Under the pieces are notes generated by a model that saw only the letters and a list, made by a program, of their open reading frames with translations, had not been told where the DNA came from and made no database searches. A DNA stretch of 14,265 bases from Nostoc sp. NMS4 (GTDB lineage Bacteria > Cyanobacteriota > Cyanobacteriia > Cyanobacteriales > Nostocaceae): the NCBI RefSeq assembly GCF_017115095.1, contig NZ_JABXKI010000204.1, positions 42,229 to 56,493 of the forward strand, read 5' to 3'. The position numbers and the translations under genes are program-made. Below are positions 1,081-6,811 of this stretch, one piece after another. The first letter of the stretch is position 1; the number at the start of each line of letters is the position of its first letter.

Positions 1081-1206
1081 TTAGCTTCTGGTTCAACTCA
1101 CTTTTTGAGTACTTTAACAAAATTTCTGGGCTAACACACCCTACTTATACTTATAATGGAGAACTTAGTTTTTGGTCTTCCCCTAGACTAAAAATCAATA
1201 GTTTAT

Positions 1207-1246
1207 AAACAAGGTCTGCTTACGCAGGCTTTGTTTGCTTTTTCTC
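1207..1246 (+). terminator. Orphan rho-independent-terminator-like hairpin
   Basis: aaacaaggtctgc (1207-1219), loop ttac, gcaggctttgttt (1224-1236). This is a 13-bp stem with 2 G-U pairs when read as plus-strand RNA, followed by the T-rich run gctttttctc. No credible plus-strand gene ends here. Confidence 0.35.
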
Positions 1247-1494
1247 TGGCATAACCTGGAAAATATTAAGTATAAAACCGCTATAGGTGTAGAGTGTTTT
1301 ACCGCGTTAGGGTAACGCATTATTTCAGGTTTTCTGTGCCTGATAAAAACCATCATATATCATACACCTTTTCAACGCCTAAAGAGCAGTTTGACATCAA
1401 AAATTACTTTATAAATTTAGCAAAAAAAGTTAAATAAGCTTCCATCTTTGGGAACAATAAACCTATCGAATTTCAGGTAAGTAGGTTAAAAGCA

Positions 1495-1842
1495 TTGACT
1501 GATGAAACTGCGGAACTTTTGTACCCCTCGGTGGAGAAATTGGTTAACGAGATTGTGGCAGTTAACCACGCTTGGAAAGTAGCTCGTGAATTATTTGGAC
1601 AAGATTCACCCCTATCTATTTCTTCACGGGATTTAAAAACCTGTTTGCAGGTGCGTTTGTTACGAAGCTATGCACCAAAACAGGTTTATTTAATTGAGGA
1701 TAAACAATCAGAAGGTGAACCGGTTTACAGCTTATGCCTCCGGGAATCTATAGGAACTCGCCTGTATGCAGAACATCTCCCAATGCGGATAGCTAAAGAA
1801 GTTCTTACGGATAAAGAATTAGAGCAATTCAAAAAGTTATAA
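1495..1842 (+). CDS. Hypothetical 115-aa protein, first gene of the Zorya-like operon
   Basis: Open frame with a TTG start (start uncertain; an in-frame GTG lies at 1531). It ends 25 nt before the GTG of the ZorA-like gene, on the same strand. No TM segment and no domain I can recognise. Confidence 0.5.
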   Translation: MTDETAELLYPSVEKLVNEIVAVNHAWKVARELFGQDSPLSISSRDLKTCLQVRLLRSYAPKQVYLIEDKQSEGEPVYSLCLRESIGTRLYAEHLPMRIAKEVLTDKELEQFKKL

Positions 1843-1867
1843 CCAAGATAAACAAGAGGGGTGCAGC

Positions 1868-4129
1868 GTGGAAATAACAAAAGTTTGGGACATTATTTGG
1901 CATAACGAATTTTTTCATTGGGCAGTTGCTTTTGTGTTGATAGCCGCAATTATTGTCGAGCTTTACACATTATGGCAGTATTGGCTCTCAGAGTGTGGCA
2001 CAAGTGAAGCCGCGATTAAATTTTTGAATAATTTGAAAAAGGGTAAAAATGTAAAGCTTTCAAACAAAGTTCGCCCCTGGTTAAAAGAGTATTTAGGAAC
2101 TGATGACTCTAGTAGATTCAAACAACAAGATGGTAATTTTATACTGATAAAGTATCCATCTATCTTAGCCAACCCCATACCTCGTAGTTCCCTACGCTTC
2201 GTGACAACCTTGTGTACTGCCATTGGTCTTTTAGGAACATTTTATGGTATACAACAGGGACTCCAAGGAATCAATTTATCTACAGAAGATACGAAAGAAC
2301 TGATAACTGCCAGTAAAGAGCTATTGGTGGGAATGAAAACAGCTTTCTCTACTTCCATGATGGGGCTTGGTTCTGGTAGCTTATTTACTCTAGTTTTGTT
2401 TGCATGTGATTCGCTACGTCAGAAACGGCGTGATAGTTTGCGTCATAAATTGAAGGCGATCGCAACTTTAAAAACGGCAGACAATGCCAACCATGAAATA
2501 GCTGAAGCACTTAGTCTTGTAGCAAAAAACTTGACTGGGTTAAAGCAGCTAAATGCAGAAGGCATTGGTCAAGCTGTAGGTAGGAGTATTGCAGAACAAT
2601 TCGCAGGTTTAAATCAGTTGTCAGCCCAAGCTATTGGTCAATCTGTAGGAGAGCAAGTGCAGACTGCTATCTTACCGGCGCTGCGAGCAATTTTCAAAGA
2701 GCAGCAACAACTTCGACAACTTCAAGAAAATCAGGGACAGAGAGTTTTAGAAGAACTGATCAAAGATTTGCGAATTCAGGTACTCGAACCCATTGCAGAT
2801 CGGCTAGATAAAAGTGCAGAGTTAACCCAACAAGCTTCCGAAGCTGTGCTGACTCTGCATAGAGAATTGGGTGGTATTTCTCAAAGTTTGGCAAATTCCA
2901 TCCTGACAATTGAGAACTTTCAAAAAGAGACTTTGGTAAAACTTCAAGGATTTGCTAAGAATTTGGGAGACACCCTCAATCAATTCCAAACAGATACAAA
3001 AGATGTTTTACAACAAACAGCACAGGAAATTAACCGAGCCGTAGACCAAAGTATTCAAGGACTTACAGCCCAACGAAGTGCTTTTGAAACAAGTGCAGTG
3101 CAAGCTGCTGCTACCTTCCGAGGAATACGAGAGGAACTGCAAACAGCGCTACAAGAACGCGCAGTAGTAGAACAGCAGATGCTTCAAGGATTTGCTAACA
3201 ATATGGGGCAAACTTTGAGTCAATTCCAAACTGAAACTACGGGAGTTATACAACAAACATCTCACGAAATTAATCGAGGTGTAGCTCAAAGTATCGAAGG
3301 AATGACAGCCCAGCGAAGTGCTTTTGAAGCAAGTGCAGTGCAAGCTGCTGCTACTTTCCGAGGAATACGAGAGGAACTGCAAACAGCACTACAAGAACGC
3401 GCAATAGTAGAACAGCAGACGCTTCAAGCTACTCGGACTGGAATTATCCAAATTCTCACCCAAGCAAATAGAACCTTTCATGAGCAAACTAATACTTTAC
3501 AAACAGTGGGTAATCAAGCTTCTGGGTTAATGAATGATGCGAAGGATAATCTTCTGGCTACTTTAGGCAATATCGACGCAACACTCACAGCCACCCGCCA
3601 AACAGTAGAGGAAGATTTGACCAGATTTAGGCAAGAATATCAAACAAATTTACAGATGTTTTTTCAAGAACAAAACAACTTACTTGAAGGGACGCTAGGC
3701 AAACAACAGGATGGATTATCTGAGGTTGTTAACAATCTTGATCGGGTCTTCAGAGAAGAATCTCAAAGACGTAGTAAATTGACTCAAGAAGTAGACGGAA
3801 GTATGACAAAAATTCAGAAGTCTGTCGAACAAATTAATCAATTAGTTATTGCGGCTGGATTAAACGACGGACAACGACTAATGCAACTAGAAAAGCTTGC
3901 TAGCGGTATTGGACAGCAAGTGCAAATAGTAGATAAATCATACATAAATTTGAATCAAAAATTTGACATTAGCCTTGAGTCTTGGCAGAGTCATCTTGAA
4001 AGGTCTATGCAAAGAACTGTTGACTTACAGGAAAGCTTTTTCCAAAAAGCAGATACTTCTATGGCTAGAGTTTGCGGAGATTTACTCAAAACAGCAGAAG
4101 TGTTAGTAGCAGCAAATAATAAATACTAA
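1868..4129 (+). CDS. zorA: ZorA-like protein: MotA/ExbB/TolQ-type proton-channel membrane domain plus long helical or coiled-coil tail (753 aa)
   Basis: GTG start preceded by agagggg. TM1 spans about aa 15-38. TM2 and TM3 (aa ~108-180, nt ~2189-2407) carry a MotA_ExbB-like signature: AIGLLGTFYGIQQGL ... LLVGMKTAFSTSMMGLGSGSLF. The remaining ~570 aa are Q/E/L/A-rich, low in Pro and Gly, and contain internal repeats. This matches the long cytoplasmic tail that separates ZorA from flagellar MotA or ExbB. Confidence 0.75.
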   Translation: MEITKVWDIIWHNEFFHWAVAFVLIAAIIVELYTLWQYWLSECGTSEAAIKFLNNLKKGKNVKLSNKVRPWLKEYLGTDDSSRFKQQDGNFILIKYPSILANPIPRSSLRFVTTLCTAIGLLGTFYGIQQGLQGINLSTEDTKELITASKELLVGMKTAFSTSMMGLGSGSLFTLVLFACDSLRQKRRDSLRHKLKAIATLKTADNANHEIAEALSLVAKNLTGLKQLNAEGIGQAVGRSIAEQFAGLNQLSAQAIGQSVGEQVQTAILPALRAIFKEQQQLRQLQENQGQRVLEELIKDLRIQVLEPIADRLDKSAELTQQASEAVLTLHRELGGISQSLANSILTIENFQKETLVKLQGFAKNLGDTLNQFQTDTKDVLQQTAQEINRAVDQSIQGLTAQRSAFETSAVQAAATFRGIREELQTALQERAVVEQQMLQGFANNMGQTLSQFQTETTGVIQQTSHEINRGVAQSIEGMTAQRSAFEASAVQAAATFRGIREELQTALQERAIVEQQTLQATRTGIIQILTQANRTFHEQTNTLQTVGNQASGLMNDAKDNLLATLGNIDATLTATRQTVEEDLTRFRQEYQTNLQMFFQEQNNLLEGTLGKQQDGLSEVVNNLDRVFREESQRRSKLTQEVDGSMTKIQKSVEQINQLVIAAGLNDGQRLMQLEKLASGIGQQVQIVDKSYINLNQKFDISLESWQSHLERSMQRTVDLQESFFQKADTSMARVCGDLLKTAEVLVAANNKY
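2537..2674 (+). repeat. Two tandem 69-bp (23-aa) units inside the ZorA-like tail
   Basis: GLKQLNAEGIGQAVGRSIAEQFA followed by GLNQLSAQAIGQSVGEQVQTAIL. The units start at 2537 and 2606. Confidence 0.6.
2942..3428 (+). repeat. Exact 240-bp (80-aa) in-frame tandem duplication inside the ZorA-like tail, plus 8 nt of a third unit
   Basis: Units start at 2942 and 3182 (cttcaaggatttgcta...), and the motif gcttcaag recurs at 3421. The protein units run LQGFAKNLGDTL...ERAVVEQQM and LQGFANNMGQTL...ERAIVEQQT, with 63 of 80 residues identical by my hand alignment. Confidence 0.9.
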
Positions 4130-4150
4130 ATTACCAAGGGAGTAATTAAA

Positions 4151-4813
4151 ATGGCTGATTTGATCAGCGACGAATTTGTTGAAACACAAATTGCTGATGA
4201 CGATGACTCTAGTATCTATCTGTCTATTGCCGATATGATGTCTAGTTTACTAATGTTTTTCGCATTGCTATTTATCACTACACTACTCCAACTTGCACAA
4301 AAAGATGCACCAAAACGGGTAGTAATTGGTAATGTTGTCGGACAGATGAAAAGCAACAATATCAATGTTAAAGTCAACCCAGAAACCGGGGATGTCAGTA
4401 TCCAAGAATCAATTCTTTTTGCCAAGGGAAGTACAGAACTGAAACCAGAAGGTAAAGCCTTCCTTCGCAGCTTTATTCCTGTTTACAGTGGTGTTATTTT
4501 CTCTAAACCAGAATTTGAGAAGGAAATTAGCCGTGTAGTTATAGAAGGTCACACTAGCTCAGATGGAGACAACAAAACCAATCTACAACTAAGCTTGTTG
4601 CGATCAGCATCAGTTTACAACTACATTTTCTATGATATGAATTTCCCTACTAAAGCACCTTTAAGCCAAAAAATATTAGCTGCTGGTCGTGGAGAAATCG
4701 AATCTGACAAGCAACGTGATAATCCAGGCGATCGCAAGGTAGTTTTCCGCTTTCAGTTCCGCAGTGATGAGTTAAAAAAAGATATCATCAAAACCTCTCT
4801 TGAAAGGAGCTAA
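4151..4813 (+). CDS. zorB: ZorB-like protein: MotB-type TM/plug with conserved Asp plus OmpA-like peptidoglycan-binding domain (220 aa)
   Basis: IYLSIADMMSSLLMFFALLFI matches the MotB-type TM motif, with Asp28 at nt 4232-4234. The C-terminal ILFAKGSTELKPEGKAFL ... VVIEGHTSSDGDNKTNLQLSLLRSASVYNYI ... AAGRGE matches the OmpA/MotB C-terminal signature. It starts 21 nt after the ZorA-like stop. Confidence 0.8.
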   Translation: MADLISDEFVETQIADDDDSSIYLSIADMMSSLLMFFALLFITTLLQLAQKDAPKRVVIGNVVGQMKSNNINVKVNPETGDVSIQESILFAKGSTELKPEGKAFLRSFIPVYSGVIFSKPEFEKEISRVVIEGHTSSDGDNKTNLQLSLLRSASVYNYIFYDMNFPTKAPLSQKILAAGRGEIESDKQRDNPGDRKVVFRFQFRSDELKKDIIKTSLERS

Positions 4814-6203
4814 AACATTGAATTCTCAGTTTTCCATTCCTTCCCTACCTGAAACTCCCCAGTGTAGTCCTAATCAACTTATTCAGCTTGCAAGCAACTT
4901 ACCAGATGTAACAATATCAATACCAAGTGTTGATAAAGTATTGGAAGCTATTGAACAGGGTAAAGCTGATCGAGTAAGTAAGTTAGACTGGGTTTACTGC
5001 ATCCATGCTAAAGCACAATGGGATCAGCAAAATATTGACCGATGTAGGAAAACATCAGCAGCCATTTGGAAGGTAGCAATTTCTAATTTATGGTTGCAAC
5101 ATCAGCTATTGTGGCGTTTAGCTCTTTATTATGGCGATCGGCAAGAACAGGTGTTAGCACAGTCTTTAGCTGAATCTTTTGATATCTTTGCTAATTCTGA
5201 CTTAGTTAGTCACCTGCTACCAGTTCAAATTATTCGGGTATTTTGTAATAAACAAGCAGGCAGAGAATTAGCAAAAATTGCTTGTGAACAGCGTGTTAAT
5301 CGAACTGAATTACTAAACATAATCAAAGAAGATTTACCTATTTGGATTCCATTATTTAGCAGATTCATAGAAGATATAACTCCCTATTTTACTACAATTC
5401 GCTCTCAAGATCAGCAGCAAGTAAGATGGCTGTTAAGTTGTTTAGATGAAATGTCAGATAGTCAGCAAATAAAAGCTGTTAATCATTTACTAACTAATGT
5501 TTCCAATGATATAGCAAACAATCATTCTTTACTGGTTGATTGGTTGAGAAATAACTATAGAAATAGTGAAAATTGGTATAAACTTTCAGATCAAGCAAGG
5601 CAAAGACTTCGAGAGTGGATTGGAGGTATCAATTATGCTGATTTCCAAAAGTTAGTAAATCTCATATTGAAGAAGCTCGATTTCCCAGACTTCGAGTCAA
5701 AACGGCTATGTAGTCGCAGAAACTTTTGGGCTAGTTACAGTAACCGCTTTGAACGGCTTCGCATCTTGTTACCCACGACATCACAAATTGCCATAGGGTA
5801 TCAAATCCAAGGTGATGTTGATCTATTAGAAGATGATGGTAGCGACCCGACAGAGGTTTGTATATTTGATTTTGGTGAGTGGTTTGTAGTCGAATTCTTT
5901 CGTGGAAGAGGTAGTGAGACGCGCCTGTTTCCGAAAAATTCCAGAAATGAGCAAATCCTTTTTGGTGAATCCACGCTTTCAGTCAAGCGGATTCGTTGTC
6001 TGGGTGGCGATAAGCACGATCATGAATTTCTTTGGCAATTCTTTTGCCGCCAATGGCTTGCAAATAAGGGAATTAACCCAAATCCAAGTACTGAACCTTA
6101 CACAAACCCGACAGCAGATCAATTACAACAGCGAGAAAACAGGCTTGGGCGGTGGAAAAGAGAAATTGAATATCTGGAACAGCAACATCGAGCCTACGTG
6201 TGA
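4800..6203 (+). CDS. EH-signature-like (ZorC-like) protein, 467 aa as given (461 aa if TTG 4818 is the start)
   Basis: Overlaps the ZorB-like 3' end. The best ribosome-binding context is AGGAG at 4805-4809 followed by an in-frame TTG at 4818. The C-terminal third has RRNFWASYSNRFERLRILLP, then CIFDFGEWFVVEFF (Glu365, nt 5892-5894), then GGDKHDHEFLWQFF (His406/His408). This Glu-then-His arrangement about 40 residues apart is what I recall for the EH_Signature domain of Zorya ZorC. The assignment rests on motifs and context and has not been searched. Confidence 0.55.
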   Translation: MKGAKTLNSQFSIPSLPETPQCSPNQLIQLASNLPDVTISIPSVDKVLEAIEQGKADRVSKLDWVYCIHAKAQWDQQNIDRCRKTSAAIWKVAISNLWLQHQLLWRLALYYGDRQEQVLAQSLAESFDIFANSDLVSHLLPVQIIRVFCNKQAGRELAKIACEQRVNRTELLNIIKEDLPIWIPLFSRFIEDITPYFTTIRSQDQQQVRWLLSCLDEMSDSQQIKAVNHLLTNVSNDIANNHSLLVDWLRNNYRNSENWYKLSDQARQRLREWIGGINYADFQKLVNLILKKLDFPDFESKRLCSRRNFWASYSNRFERLRILLPTTSQIAIGYQIQGDVDLLEDDGSDPTEVCIFDFGEWFVVEFFRGRGSETRLFPKNSRNEQILFGESTLSVKRIRCLGGDKHDHEFLWQFFCRQWLANKGINPNPSTEPYTNPTADQLQQRENRLGRWKREIEYLEQQHRAYV

Positions 6204-6224: not shown

Positions 6225-6578
6225 CTACTGATGCACAATAATGGTGTCTCGACTTATTTCAATATAGGAATGCTGCTTAAACAATTCAACTATAGATTGG
6301 AAGTTAGCTATAAATAGGGATTCCAATTCTGAGTTATTGATATTGCCTGTCGTGATTAAAAGGAGTTTATAAGGTTGCTGAACTGTTAAAAAAGAGTTGA
6401 CAAAATCCACATCTTTAGTAATTAAAATTCAATTTTGTTGAATTGATACGGTATTAATCTCATTATCTGGCGTAGCATTTTCCCTTGGTAAGTCTCTGGT
6501 GTGGATCGTGTCATAACCTAAAGTTTTGATAAAACGGGCGAGACGAACTGGTAATTGAGCATCGACAATAAATTTCAT
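6225..6578 (-). pseudogene. DUF5615-family (PIN-like/Mut7-C-like) toxin gene interrupted by one in-frame TGA
   Basis: ORFs 6429-6611 and 6225-6410 are in the same frame (6611 minus 6410 is 201). The continuous reading is MKFIVDAQLPVRLARFIKTLGYDTIHTRDLP...NTVSIQQN*ILITKDVDFVNSFL...LLLITTGNINNSELESLF...EISRDTIIVHQ, which matches the DUF5615 pattern end to end. The TGA lies at 6431-6429. The ATG at 6578 overlaps the stop of the DUF433 gene as ATGA. Confidence 0.75.
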
Positions 6579-6811
6579 GAGGCGATTCGATGAATGCTTT
6601 TGACTTGGCACAGTCGAGCCGCAAATAACAAGACAGCCAAAATATCTTCAGATTTTAAATCGTCATAATCTTTCAATATTTCCTCAGTACTCATGCCAGA
6701 ACTGAGCAGTTCTAAAATAAACTCAACTGGATAACGAAGTCCTCGAATACAGGGTTTACCGTGGCAGATATTTGGATTATGAGTGATGCGTTGTAGAAGT
6801 GTGTTGTTCAT
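6575..6811 (-). CDS. DUF433-domain protein (antitoxin-like partner of DUF5615)
   Basis: ITHNPNICHGKPCIRGLRYPVEFILELLSSGMSTEEILKDYDDLKSEDILAVLLFA matches the DUF433 signature (dP.i..GkP.i.G.R..V..il..l..G.s.eeI...y..l..edI.aal.yA). It has a 4-nt ATGA overlap with the downstream DUF5615 frame. Confidence 0.8.
   Translation of the reverse strand: MNNTLLQRITHNPNICHGKPCIRGLRYPVEFILELLSSGMSTEEILKDYDDLKSEDILAVLLFAARLCQVKSIHRIAS

What the first reader, a model, noticed from the sequence alone, without database searches (positions are those of the whole stretch)
1495..6203. Zorya-like stator-based operon with non-canonical gene content: small unknown gene + ZorA + ZorB + ZorC-like, and no ZorD/ZorE/ZorF-G effector
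Four same-strand genes are packed with 25-nt and 21-nt gaps and one overlap. Gene 2 has a MotA/ExbB-type TM2-TM3 channel signature followed by a ~570-aa helical tail. Gene 3 has a MotB-type TM with the conserved Asp plus an OmpA-like peptidoglycan-binding domain. Together these are the defining ZorA/ZorB pair of the Zorya anti-phage system, not a flagellar, Tol or Ton motor: there are no TonB, ExbD, TolR or flagellar genes here, and the long tail is ZorA-specific. Gene 4 looks like the EH-signature ZorC. In described Zorya types the stator comes with ZorC+ZorD (Snf2 helicase/nuclease), ZorE (HNH) or ZorF+ZorG. Here the next gene downstream is on the opposite strand and is a small TA module, so the locus encodes no recognisable nuclease or helicase effector. 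An unannotatable 115-aa gene leads the operon instead. This could be an undescribed Zorya subtype, or a ZorABC core that relies on a different or distant effector.
Basis: partly seen in the sequence, partly recalled or inferred. Interest (0 to 1): 0.85.

Follow-up and report, generated by a model that had tools for sequence, protein, structure and literature searches.

The report
ZorD-less Zorya cassette with new small protein
This Nostoc locus is an intact four-gene relative of the Zorya anti-phage system that, in dozens of species, lacks the usual nuclease gene and instead carries a conserved small protein of unknown fold, which suggests a fourth, undescribed Zorya architecture.

Summary
Four intact same-strand genes lie at 1495-6203 with 25-nt and 21-nt gaps and a 14-nt overlap. 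Genes 2-4 match PADLOC type I Zorya models ZorA (1018 bits), ZorB (240 bits) and ZorC (595 bits), far better than any Mot, Exb or Tol model.

No ZorD, ZorE, ZorF or ZorG is in the window. The missing ZorD is not a strain-specific loss. The same cassette (g1-ZorA-ZorB-ZorC) is intact in 38 other species genomes, mostly Nostocales, and none has a ZorD within 10 kb. All four genes are under purifying selection.

Gene 1 ("g1", 115 aa) is a real family: 146 clusters at 50% identity and five invariant residues. Its structure model is confident (pLDDT 92.5) but has no PDB or viral structural neighbour. In every context I read with downstream sequence, g1 directly precedes a Zorya stator gene.

In Proteobacteria the cassette sits beside nuclease-bearing systems: Zorya II, a complete Zorya I, or a Druantia III-like pair. 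In cyanobacteria it stands alone.

The g1-linked ZorA and ZorC always hit the same PADLOC models, and ZorB did so in all but one locus. A canonical ZorABCD operon in the same locus hits different models.

Verdict: a new variant of Zorya. Its effector step is unknown.

The parts
1081..1494 (+). Intergenic region upstream of g1, the presumed promoter region of the cassette. It contains a terminator-like hairpin at 1206-1237.
   Evidence: There is no ORF of 60 aa or more apart from 1020-1208. No convincing sigma-70 match lies on the + strand, and overall counts are no better than shuffles. The promoter is inferred, not shown.
1495..1842 (+). g1: a 115-aa acidic protein (pI 5.7) that defines a new family. 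It is always the first gene of this cassette type.
   Evidence: There are no Pfam, PADLOC or NCBIfam hits. It has 101 close homologues and 146 representative clusters by HMMER. Residues N24, K48, Q52, H94 and P96 are invariant across 54 diverse sequences. The AF2 model has pLDDT 92.5, and Foldseek finds nothing at E<=1e-3 in PDB or BFVD. dN/dS is 0.29.
1868..4129 (+). ZorA: MotA/ExbB-like channel subunit (channel signature at residues 109-178, nt 2192-2401) with a helical tail of about 565 aa.
   Evidence: PADLOC ZorA1 PDLC00597 at 1018 bits. Pfam MotA_ExbB at 20.8 bits, below the cut-off. NCBIfam best hit is antiphage_ZorA_2. dN/dS is 0.24.
2942..3428 (+). Tandem 240-nt repeat (2.0 copies, 85% identical) inside zorA. 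It encodes two 80-aa tail modules (ZorA residues 359-438 and 439-518).
   Evidence: TRF result. Orthologues carry 1, 2 or 3 copies, giving ZorA lengths of about 672, 753 and 835 aa.
4151..4813 (+). ZorB: MotB-like plug/TM segment with Asp28 (codon 4232-4234) and an OmpA-type peptidoglycan-binding domain (residues 89-195).
   Evidence: PADLOC ZorB1 PDLC00609 at 240 bits. Pfam OmpA at 42.6 bits. It aligns to solved EcZorB 8qyd_F at E=3e-9, with D28 opposite D26. dN/dS is 0.16.
4800..6203 (+). ZorC: EH-signature protein. It has a helical N-terminal domain, an alpha/beta domain (residues 319-422, nt 5754-6065) that carries the conserved E352, E365, E373, R375 and H406-D407-H408, and a C-terminal long helix.
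   Evidence: Pfam EH_Signature at 134 bits over the full model. PADLOC ZorC1 PDLC00618 at 595 bits. The AF2 model has pLDDT 85.2. dN/dS is 0.37.

Best explanation
The locus is an intact member of a distinct lineage of the Zorya anti-phage system. Its conserved gene set is g1-ZorA-ZorB-ZorC, and it has no ZorD as a rule.

Shown here. ZorA, ZorB and ZorC are Zorya-type proteins. The four-gene set is conserved, under purifying selection, and recurs in two phyla. g1 was found only directly upstream of these stator genes.

Inferred by analogy with solved E. coli and Shewanella Zorya systems. ZorA and ZorB would form a 5:2 proton-driven inner-membrane motor. ZorB would anchor it to peptidoglycan when a phage perturbs the envelope. 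Rotation would then pass down the long ZorA tail, whose length here varies in 80-residue modules. The tail would recruit or activate ZorC, a DNA-binding EH-signature protein.

Speculative. g1 is co-translated with the stator and acts as a lineage-specific subunit or adaptor at the tail-effector step. Execution is done either by ZorC plus g1, or by a nuclease supplied in trans. In Proteobacteria that nuclease would come from the adjacent ZorE, ZorD or DruE. In cyanobacteria it is not identified.
For: - Zorya identity: PADLOC gives ZorA 1018, ZorB 240 and ZorC 595 bits. Pfam gives EH_Signature 134 bits and OmpA 42.6 bits. ZorB D28 aligns with EcZorB D26.
- Conservation: 39 intact cassettes including the window, and 25 decayed ones. 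g1 is present in 39 of 39 loci with intact ZorABC. dN/dS is 0.16-0.37 for all four genes. In Nostocaceae the cassette sits at a syntenic chromosomal site. It also sits elsewhere, including on Nostoc sp. HK-01 plasmid2 and in Crocosphaera.
- No ZorD within 10 kb in the related genome loci or after ZorC in the metagenome loci.
- A separate clade: in L085 a canonical operon hits ZorA PDLC00601, ZorB PDLC00608, ZorC PDLC00623 and ZorD PDLC00627. The divergent g1-linked cassette in the same locus hits PDLC00597, PDLC00609 and PDLC00618, as the window and Vibrio do.
- Defence-island context elsewhere: Zorya II is co-operonic, with gaps of 0-7 nt. Druantia III-like YjiT/YjiV pairs follow the cassette. 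Type I RM, DISARM/Dpd-like and TOTE genes also occur nearby.
- Precedents: type III Zorya protects without a recognised nuclease and has a leader gene before zorA (PMC8565338). ZorC binds DNA and is recruited to activated ZorAB (PMC11946911).
Against: - In canonical type I systems deletion of any gene, ZorD included, abolishes defence (PMC11890865; PMC11946911). A ZorABC core with no nuclease therefore has no demonstrated way to kill phage.
- About 40% of related loci are decayed.
- In Nostocaceae the cassette sits among housekeeping genes rather than in an obvious defence island.
- ZorC shows no detectable sequence or fold match to anything in the PDB, including the solved EcZorC.
- g1 has no detectable similarity to any known domain, nor to ZorC, ZorD or ZorE. 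Its role is a guess.
- I could not examine the rest of the Nostoc sp. NMS4 genome.
Confidence: 0.7

Rival explanations
1. The cassette is an effector-less sensor module that works only with a separate nuclease system. It senses envelope breach and hands over to a nuclease encoded by another system: ZorE, ZorD or the Druantia III DruE in Proteobacteria, and some unlinked system in Nostoc.
For: Every proteobacterial or unassigned context I read adjoins a nuclease-bearing partner. Zorya II (ZorABE) lies 0-7 nt upstream. A complete ZorABCD lies head-to-head. DruH/DruE-like pairs lie 36-182 nt downstream or after a CARF gene. Published work shows that Druantia III can co-opt ZorE without ZorAB (PMC13192584).
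Against: The cyanobacterial cassettes, including this window, have no such neighbour within 10 kb. Only L036, L086, L119 and L069 lie next to a DpdE/DrmD-like SNF2 helicase. Defence genes cluster in islands anyway, so adjacency may reflect island structure rather than functional dependence.
Confidence: 0.3
2. The cassette is a decaying remnant of a type I Zorya that lost zorD in an ancestor and is no longer functional.
For: 25 of 64 evaluable related loci have frameshifts, split genes or internal deletions. Canonical systems need ZorD.
Against: All four ORFs in the window are intact. dN/dS is 0.16-0.37 in all four genes, g1 included. The same gene set recurs in Proteobacteria and in distant cyanobacteria at unrelated genomic sites. 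The g1-linked proteins form their own clade beside a canonical ZorABCD in one locus. That pattern fits an old independent lineage, not repeated loss.
Confidence: 0.08
3. A cognate ZorD exists elsewhere in the genome, so this is a split type I system.
For: I could see only 14 kb of a 56-kb contig. Whole genomes could not be scanned.
Against: Type I operons are described as contiguous zorABCD. None of the cassettes examined here has ZorD nearby. In L085 the only ZorD belongs to an operon with its own ZorABC of a different clade.
Confidence: 0.1
4. The cassette is a non-defence envelope motor: a peptidoglycan-anchored stator for a housekeeping process in filamentous cyanobacteria.
For: It occupies a syntenic site next to terC, ndk and the arginine decarboxylase gene across Nostocaceae. 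Crocosphaera also has it among housekeeping genes.
Against: Its strongest similarities are to Zorya models only. Its patchy presence and frequent decay are typical of defence genes. It occurs in defence islands in Proteobacteria and on a Nostoc plasmid. It also occurs in unicellular cyanobacteria.
Confidence: 0.05

Closest known systems
Zorya type I (ZorABCD; E. coli NCTC9026, Shewanella ANA-3, Serratia)
   Same: It has ZorA with a MotA-like channel and a long helical tail. It has ZorB with the conserved Asp and an OmpA-type peptidoglycan-binding domain. It has an EH-signature ZorC, in the A-B-C order on one strand. PADLOC files all three under type I models.
   Different: There is no ZorD (SNF2 helicase/nuclease), which is essential in the studied systems. 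There is an extra conserved leader gene, g1. The proteins belong to a separate model set (PDLC00597/00609/00618) from a canonical operon in the same locus (PDLC00601/00608/00623/00627). ZorC is shorter (467 aa) and gives no PDB hit.
Zorya type III (ZorF-ZorA-ZorB-ZorG)
   Same: Both are four-gene layouts with an accessory gene in front of zorA and another after zorB. Neither has a recognised nuclease. Type III was nevertheless shown to protect (PMC8565338).
   Different: g1 and ZorC do not match the ZorF or ZorG models. ZorC carries an EH signature, whereas ZorF and ZorG are DUF3348 and DUF2894 proteins.
Zorya type II (ZorABE) and Zorya II-Druantia III islands
   Same: Both have a ZorAB stator with a tail. 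In Vibrio and Shewanella-like contigs the g1-ZorABC cassette is co-operonic with ZorABE and/or followed by a DruH/DruE-like pair. This matches the published Zorya II-Druantia III linkage.
   Different: The window has no HNH ZorE. The Nostoc cassette stands alone.
Flagellar MotAB, ExbBD and TolQR stators
   Same: They share the ancestral 5:2 ion-driven stator architecture and the MotB-type Asp and peptidoglycan-binding domain.
   Different: Their models score far lower than the Zorya models (MotS/MotD 16-18 bits). The long ZorA tail is absent from them. There are no TonB, TolA or flagellar genes in the window.

Membership tests
Zorya (any type) | ZorA: MotA/ExbB-like channel subunit with a long cytoplasmic helical tail | tested here: met
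   PADLOC ZorA1 PDLC00597 at 1018 bits. Pfam MotA_ExbB at residues 109-178 (20.8 bits, just below cut-off). About 565 further residues follow.
Zorya (any type) | ZorB: MotB-like TM segment with the conserved Asp, plus a peptidoglycan-binding domain | tested here: met
   PADLOC ZorB1 at 240 bits and Pfam OmpA at 42.6 bits. D28 aligns to EcZorB D26 in 8qyd_F.
Zorya (any type) | ZorA5B2 complex with a tail | not testable with these tools
   No multimer prediction was available.
Zorya (any type) | Protects against phage | not testable with these tools
   This needs an experiment. The only support is context: defence-island neighbours in other lineages.
Zorya type I | ZorC with an EH-signature domain | tested here: met
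   Pfam PF15611 at 134 bits over model positions 2-423 of 423. PADLOC ZorC1 PDLC00618 at 595 bits. E365 and H408 are conserved. No similarity to solved EcZorC was detected by sequence profile or Foldseek.
Zorya type I | ZorD: SNF2-type helicase with a nuclease domain, encoded after zorC | tested here: not met
   There is no ZorD hit in the window or within 10 kb in the related genome loci. Metagenome loci show only one weak (32%) SNF2 match, 7 kb upstream in L121. A genuine ZorD scores 1435 bits with the same library. The rest of the genome was not searchable.
Zorya type II | ZorE HNH endonuclease after zorB | tested here: not met
   There is no ZorE hit in the window. A genuine ZorE scores 546 bits.
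Zorya type III | ZorF (DUF3348) and ZorG (DUF2894) flanking zorAB | tested here: not met
   g1 has no PADLOC or Pfam hit. ZorC hits only the ZorC1 and EH_Signature models.
Flagellar MotAB, ExbBD or TolQR | Best match to these families, with partner genes (TonB, TolA, flagellar) nearby | tested here: not met
   In NCBIfam the best ZorB hit is Zorya ZorB1 at 47 bits, against MotS/MotD at 16-18 bits. No partner genes are in the window.
Proposed g1-ZorABC lineage | A g1-family gene directly upstream of a stator gene, with ZorA, ZorB and ZorC of the PDLC00597/00609/00618 type | tested here: met
   The window meets this. So do V. vulnificus L082 and L085. L084 also does, except that its gene order is g1-B-A-C and its ZorB best matches PDLC00610. 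All contexts with downstream sequence show g1 followed by a stator gene.

The most novel reading that the evidence does not exclude
g1-ZorABC is a self-sufficient fourth Zorya type. In it, the novel-fold g1 protein, with its invariant Asn, Lys, Gln, His and Pro, works with the EH-signature ZorC in place of the ZorD helicase-nuclease. Either the pair is a new kind of effector, or the system stops infection without degrading DNA. The 80-residue tail modules would tune how far from the membrane the response is delivered.
Probability: 0.3. Interest if true: 0.8.

Novelty: new variant of a known kind. Interest (0 to 1): 0.62.

Why it matters
Zorya is one of the most widespread anti-phage systems. 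Its open question is how a rotating membrane motor switches on cytosolic effectors. All mechanistic work so far uses systems with an obvious nuclease (ZorD or ZorE), and published surveys kept only canonical gene orders. Cassettes like this one would therefore have been left out.

A conserved lineage that keeps ZorABC, drops ZorD and adds a small protein specific to this lineage gives a natural minimal system. It could be used to ask what ZorC does on its own and what the ZorA tail contacts. It could also show whether Zorya sensors can feed other systems' nucleases, as its tight linkage to Zorya II and Druantia III-like genes in Proteobacteria suggests.

The natural 1, 2 or 3-copy variation of an 80-residue tail module offers a ready test of whether tail length matters. 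For cyanobacteria, it identifies a common candidate defence locus that annotation leaves mostly as hypothetical proteins.

Tried and rejected
- Fold of g1. Foldseek of the confident g1 model against PDB and BFVD gave nothing at E<=1e-3.
- g1 as a split-off Zorya domain. hhalign of the g1 profile against a canonical ZorC, ZorD and ZorE gave probabilities of 0.3% or less. I therefore dropped the idea that g1 is a detached ZorC, ZorD or ZorE domain. The templates were single sequences, so sensitivity was limited.
- ZorC against solved structures. ZorC alone, the ZorC profile, and Foldseek of the ZorC model found no Zorya entry. ZorA gave only a spurious Mce hit.
- SNF2 helicases near the cassette. 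Those next to the cassette in L036, L086 and L069 match DpdE/DrmD far better than ZorD (695 and 298 bits, against 59 bits or none). I rejected them as ZorD.
- Large flanking ORFs. Fifty-one cluster representatives of large flanking ORFs gave no ZorD, Dru or Zor hits.
Metagenome scans with diverse g1 alignments failed for lack of a conserved stretch.
- Other searches. The viral contig scan found no g1. Rfam and tRNA scans of the window were empty. L090 was uninformative because g1 lies at the contig end. The P0241 locus returned no DNA.
- Literature. Searches for a fourth Zorya type, ZorH, Zorya-like or ZorABC variants found no description of this cassette. The library holds open-access papers only.
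Full report
**What is in the window.** Four intact + strand ORFs occupy 1495-6203: g1 (1495-1842, 115 aa), gene 2 (1868-4129, 753 aa), gene 3 (4151-4813, 220 aa) and gene 4 (4800-6203, 467 aa). The exact g1 protein is on record for Nostoc sp. NMS4.

Gene 2 matches PADLOC ZorA1 model PDLC00597 at 1018 bits. It has a MotA_ExbB-like segment at residues 109-178 (20.8 bits, cut-off 22.9). Gene 3 matches ZorB1 model PDLC00609 at 240 bits and Pfam OmpA at 42.6 bits. Gene 4 matches ZorC1 model PDLC00618 at 595 bits and Pfam EH_Signature over the whole model at 134 bits. g1 matches nothing in Pfam, PADLOC or NCBIfam.

ZorB aligns to the solved E. coli ZorB (8qyd_F, E=3e-9), with its Asp28 opposite the proton-relay Asp26. 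In NCBIfam the best hits are Zorya ZorA and ZorB1. Flagellar MotS and MotD score only 16-18 bits. The genes are therefore Zorya-type, not Mot, Exb or Tol.

The rest of the window holds no defence hit. It encodes a PIN/VapB-like pair, a DUF433/DUF5615 pair, TerC, Ndk, arginine decarboxylase, a nucleotidyl transferase and an IS110-like transposase.

**The missing ZorD is a conserved feature.** A scan of one genome per species found 76 loci with relatives of this ZorC. Of 64 loci not cut by contig ends, 39 including the window have all four genes intact and 25 are decayed. Every locus with intact ZorABC also has an intact g1, 39 of 39.

I clustered all ORFs of 450 aa or more in the 10-kb flanks and scanned representatives. 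None is ZorD. L036 carries an SNF2 helicase that matches DpdE at 695 bits and no ZorD model. L069 carries one that matches DrmD at 298 bits, against 59 bits for ZorD. A true ZorD scores 1435 bits with the same library.

The cassette is also intact and alone in the unicellular Crocosphaera sp. XPORK-15E. It is present on Nostoc sp. HK-01 plasmid2. In 44 further metagenome loci, g1 is followed by ZorA, ZorB and ZorC wherever enough sequence exists.

Pairwise dN/dS against the window is 0.29 for g1, 0.24 for zorA, 0.16 for zorB and 0.37 for zorC. These pairs share the window sequence and are not independent.

In Nostocaceae the cassette lies at one syntenic site upstream of terC-ndk-speA. In other genera it lies elsewhere.

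**g1 is a protein family found only beside Zorya stator genes.** A profile search of 1.84 billion representative proteins found 146 clusters at E<=1e-3 and 100 at E<=1e-10. Across 54 diverse members, N24, K48, Q52, H94 and P96 are invariant, and W27 and A92 nearly so. The protein is acidic (pI 5.7).

The AlphaFold2 model is confident (pLDDT 92.5, pTM 0.84). It shows three helices, a three-stranded sheet and two short helices. It has no Foldseek neighbour at E<=1e-3 in the PDB or in BFVD. Profile comparison with a canonical ZorC, ZorD and ZorE shows no similarity.

Gene overlaps with the next gene suggest translational coupling. The overlap is 8 nt in L085 and 4 nt in L084.

**Contexts outside cyanobacteria.** In Vibrio vulnificus and Shewanella-like contigs the order is ZorA2-ZorB2-ZorE2, a PADLOC type II Zorya. 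After a gap of 0-7 nt come g1, ZorA (PDLC00597), ZorB (PDLC00609), a longer ZorC (PDLC00618, about 780 aa, with a C-terminal extension giving weak TPR/HEAT-repeat hits) and a CARF protein.

In Ferrimonas balearica, L089 and L084, the cassette is followed within 36-182 nt by a YjiT/YjiV pair. I read this pair as Druantia III DruH/DruE-like. In the Shewanella-like loci the same pair follows the CARF gene.

In L085 the cassette lies head-to-head with a complete canonical ZorABCD. That operon hits different PADLOC models (PDLC00601, 00608, 00623, 00627), while the g1-linked genes hit PDLC00597, 00609 and 00618. The g1-linked proteins are therefore a separate clade, not a truncated copy of ordinary type I.

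The Zorya II-Druantia III linkage is published. I found no mention of this cassette.

**How it probably works.** Published type I work shows a ZorA5B2 proton-driven motor. It is activated by envelope perturbation, and its tail recruits the DNA-binding ZorC and the nuclease ZorD. Deletion of any gene abolishes defence.

For this cassette, the stator and ZorC parts of that model transfer by homology. That step is inferred. The execution step does not transfer, because no nuclease is encoded.

Three options remain.
- ZorC plus g1 form the effector.
- A nuclease is borrowed from another system. Adjacency supports this in Proteobacteria but not in cyanobacteria.
- The system acts without degrading DNA. 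Type III Zorya also has no recognised nuclease and still protects.

I favour g1 as a stator-associated adaptor or regulator at the tail-effector step, with low confidence. The ZorC model (pLDDT 85.2) has a helical N-domain and an alpha/beta domain carrying the conserved E352, E365, E373, R375 and H406-D407-H408. It gave no informative PDB match.

**Tail-length polymorphism.** zorA contains a 240-nt tandem repeat at 2942-3428 (2.0 copies, 85% identity). It encodes 80-residue modules that are 63/80 identical at the protein level. Orthologues carry one, two or three modules, giving ZorA lengths of about 672, 753 and 835 aa.

**Verdict.** This is a new variant of a known kind. Remaining doubts are whether it defends against phage at all, what executes defence, and whether an unlinked partner exists in the genome.

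Noticed in passing
window 6225-6611 (- strand), stop codon at 6429-6431: The DUF5615 gene of the DUF433/DUF5615 pair downstream of zorC carries an in-frame TGA. Twelve Nostoc orthologues have an Arg codon there (CGA, AGA or CGG). It is therefore a strain-specific nonsense mutation and a likely pseudogene.
   Followed up: yes
window 2942-3428; ZorA orthologues in L003-L074: An exact 80-residue module in the ZorA tail is present in 1, 2 or 3 tandem copies in different species. Tail length therefore changes in steps of 80 residues.
   Followed up: yes
L005, L007, L009, L013-L016, L022, L023, L027, L041, L048, L052, L053, L055, L057, L059, L061, L064, L066, L067, L070, L076, L077: Many related cassettes are decayed by frameshifts or internal deletions. 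Some deletions join g1 directly to a ZorC remnant, or a g1 N-terminus to a ZorA tail. The database proteins P0101 and P0185 look like such fusion products. Many of these genomes are MAGs, so some breaks may be assembly errors.
   Followed up: partly
L080-L083 (Shewanella-like contigs, Vibrio vulnificus): An apparent seven- or eight-gene operon: ZorA2-ZorB2-ZorE, g1-ZorA-ZorB-ZorC, then a CARF (Cas_NE0113) protein. That is two different Zorya stators in one transcription unit. Here ZorC carries a C-terminal extension of about 300 aa with weak TPR/HEAT-repeat hits.
   Followed up: partly
L084, L088, L089 (also L080, L081): The g1-ZorABC cassette is directly followed by a YjiT/YjiV (Druantia III DruH/DruE-like) pair. 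This parallels the published Zorya II-Druantia III linkage. In L084 the stator gene order is inverted (g1-ZorB-ZorA-ZorC).
   Followed up: partly
L086 (Nostoc sp. HK-01 plasmid2, AP018320.1), L036, L119: A plasmid-borne copy of the cassette is followed by a 949-aa SNF2 helicase and a large DNA-modification enzyme. The equivalent helicase in L036 best matches DpdE/DrmD. A similar helicase neighbours g1 in L036 and L119. This looks like a DISARM/Dpd/ARMADA-like neighbour rather than ZorD.
   Followed up: partly
window 1206-1237: A 14-bp-stem, terminator-like hairpin followed by a T-run lies in the intergenic region between the PIN/VapB-like pair and g1. Its role is unknown.
   Followed up: no
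window 12183-13550 (- strand): A 455-aa ORF has only a weak, sub-threshold DEDD_Tnp_IS110 hit (24.4 bits). It may be a divergent IS110-family transposase. One related locus (L009) shows a short 79%-identical fragment.
   Followed up: no
window 7793-8227 (+ strand): A 144-aa ORF with no family hit largely overlaps ndk (7930-8379) on the opposite strand. It is probably not a gene, although tblastn finds it wherever ndk is conserved.
   Followed up: no
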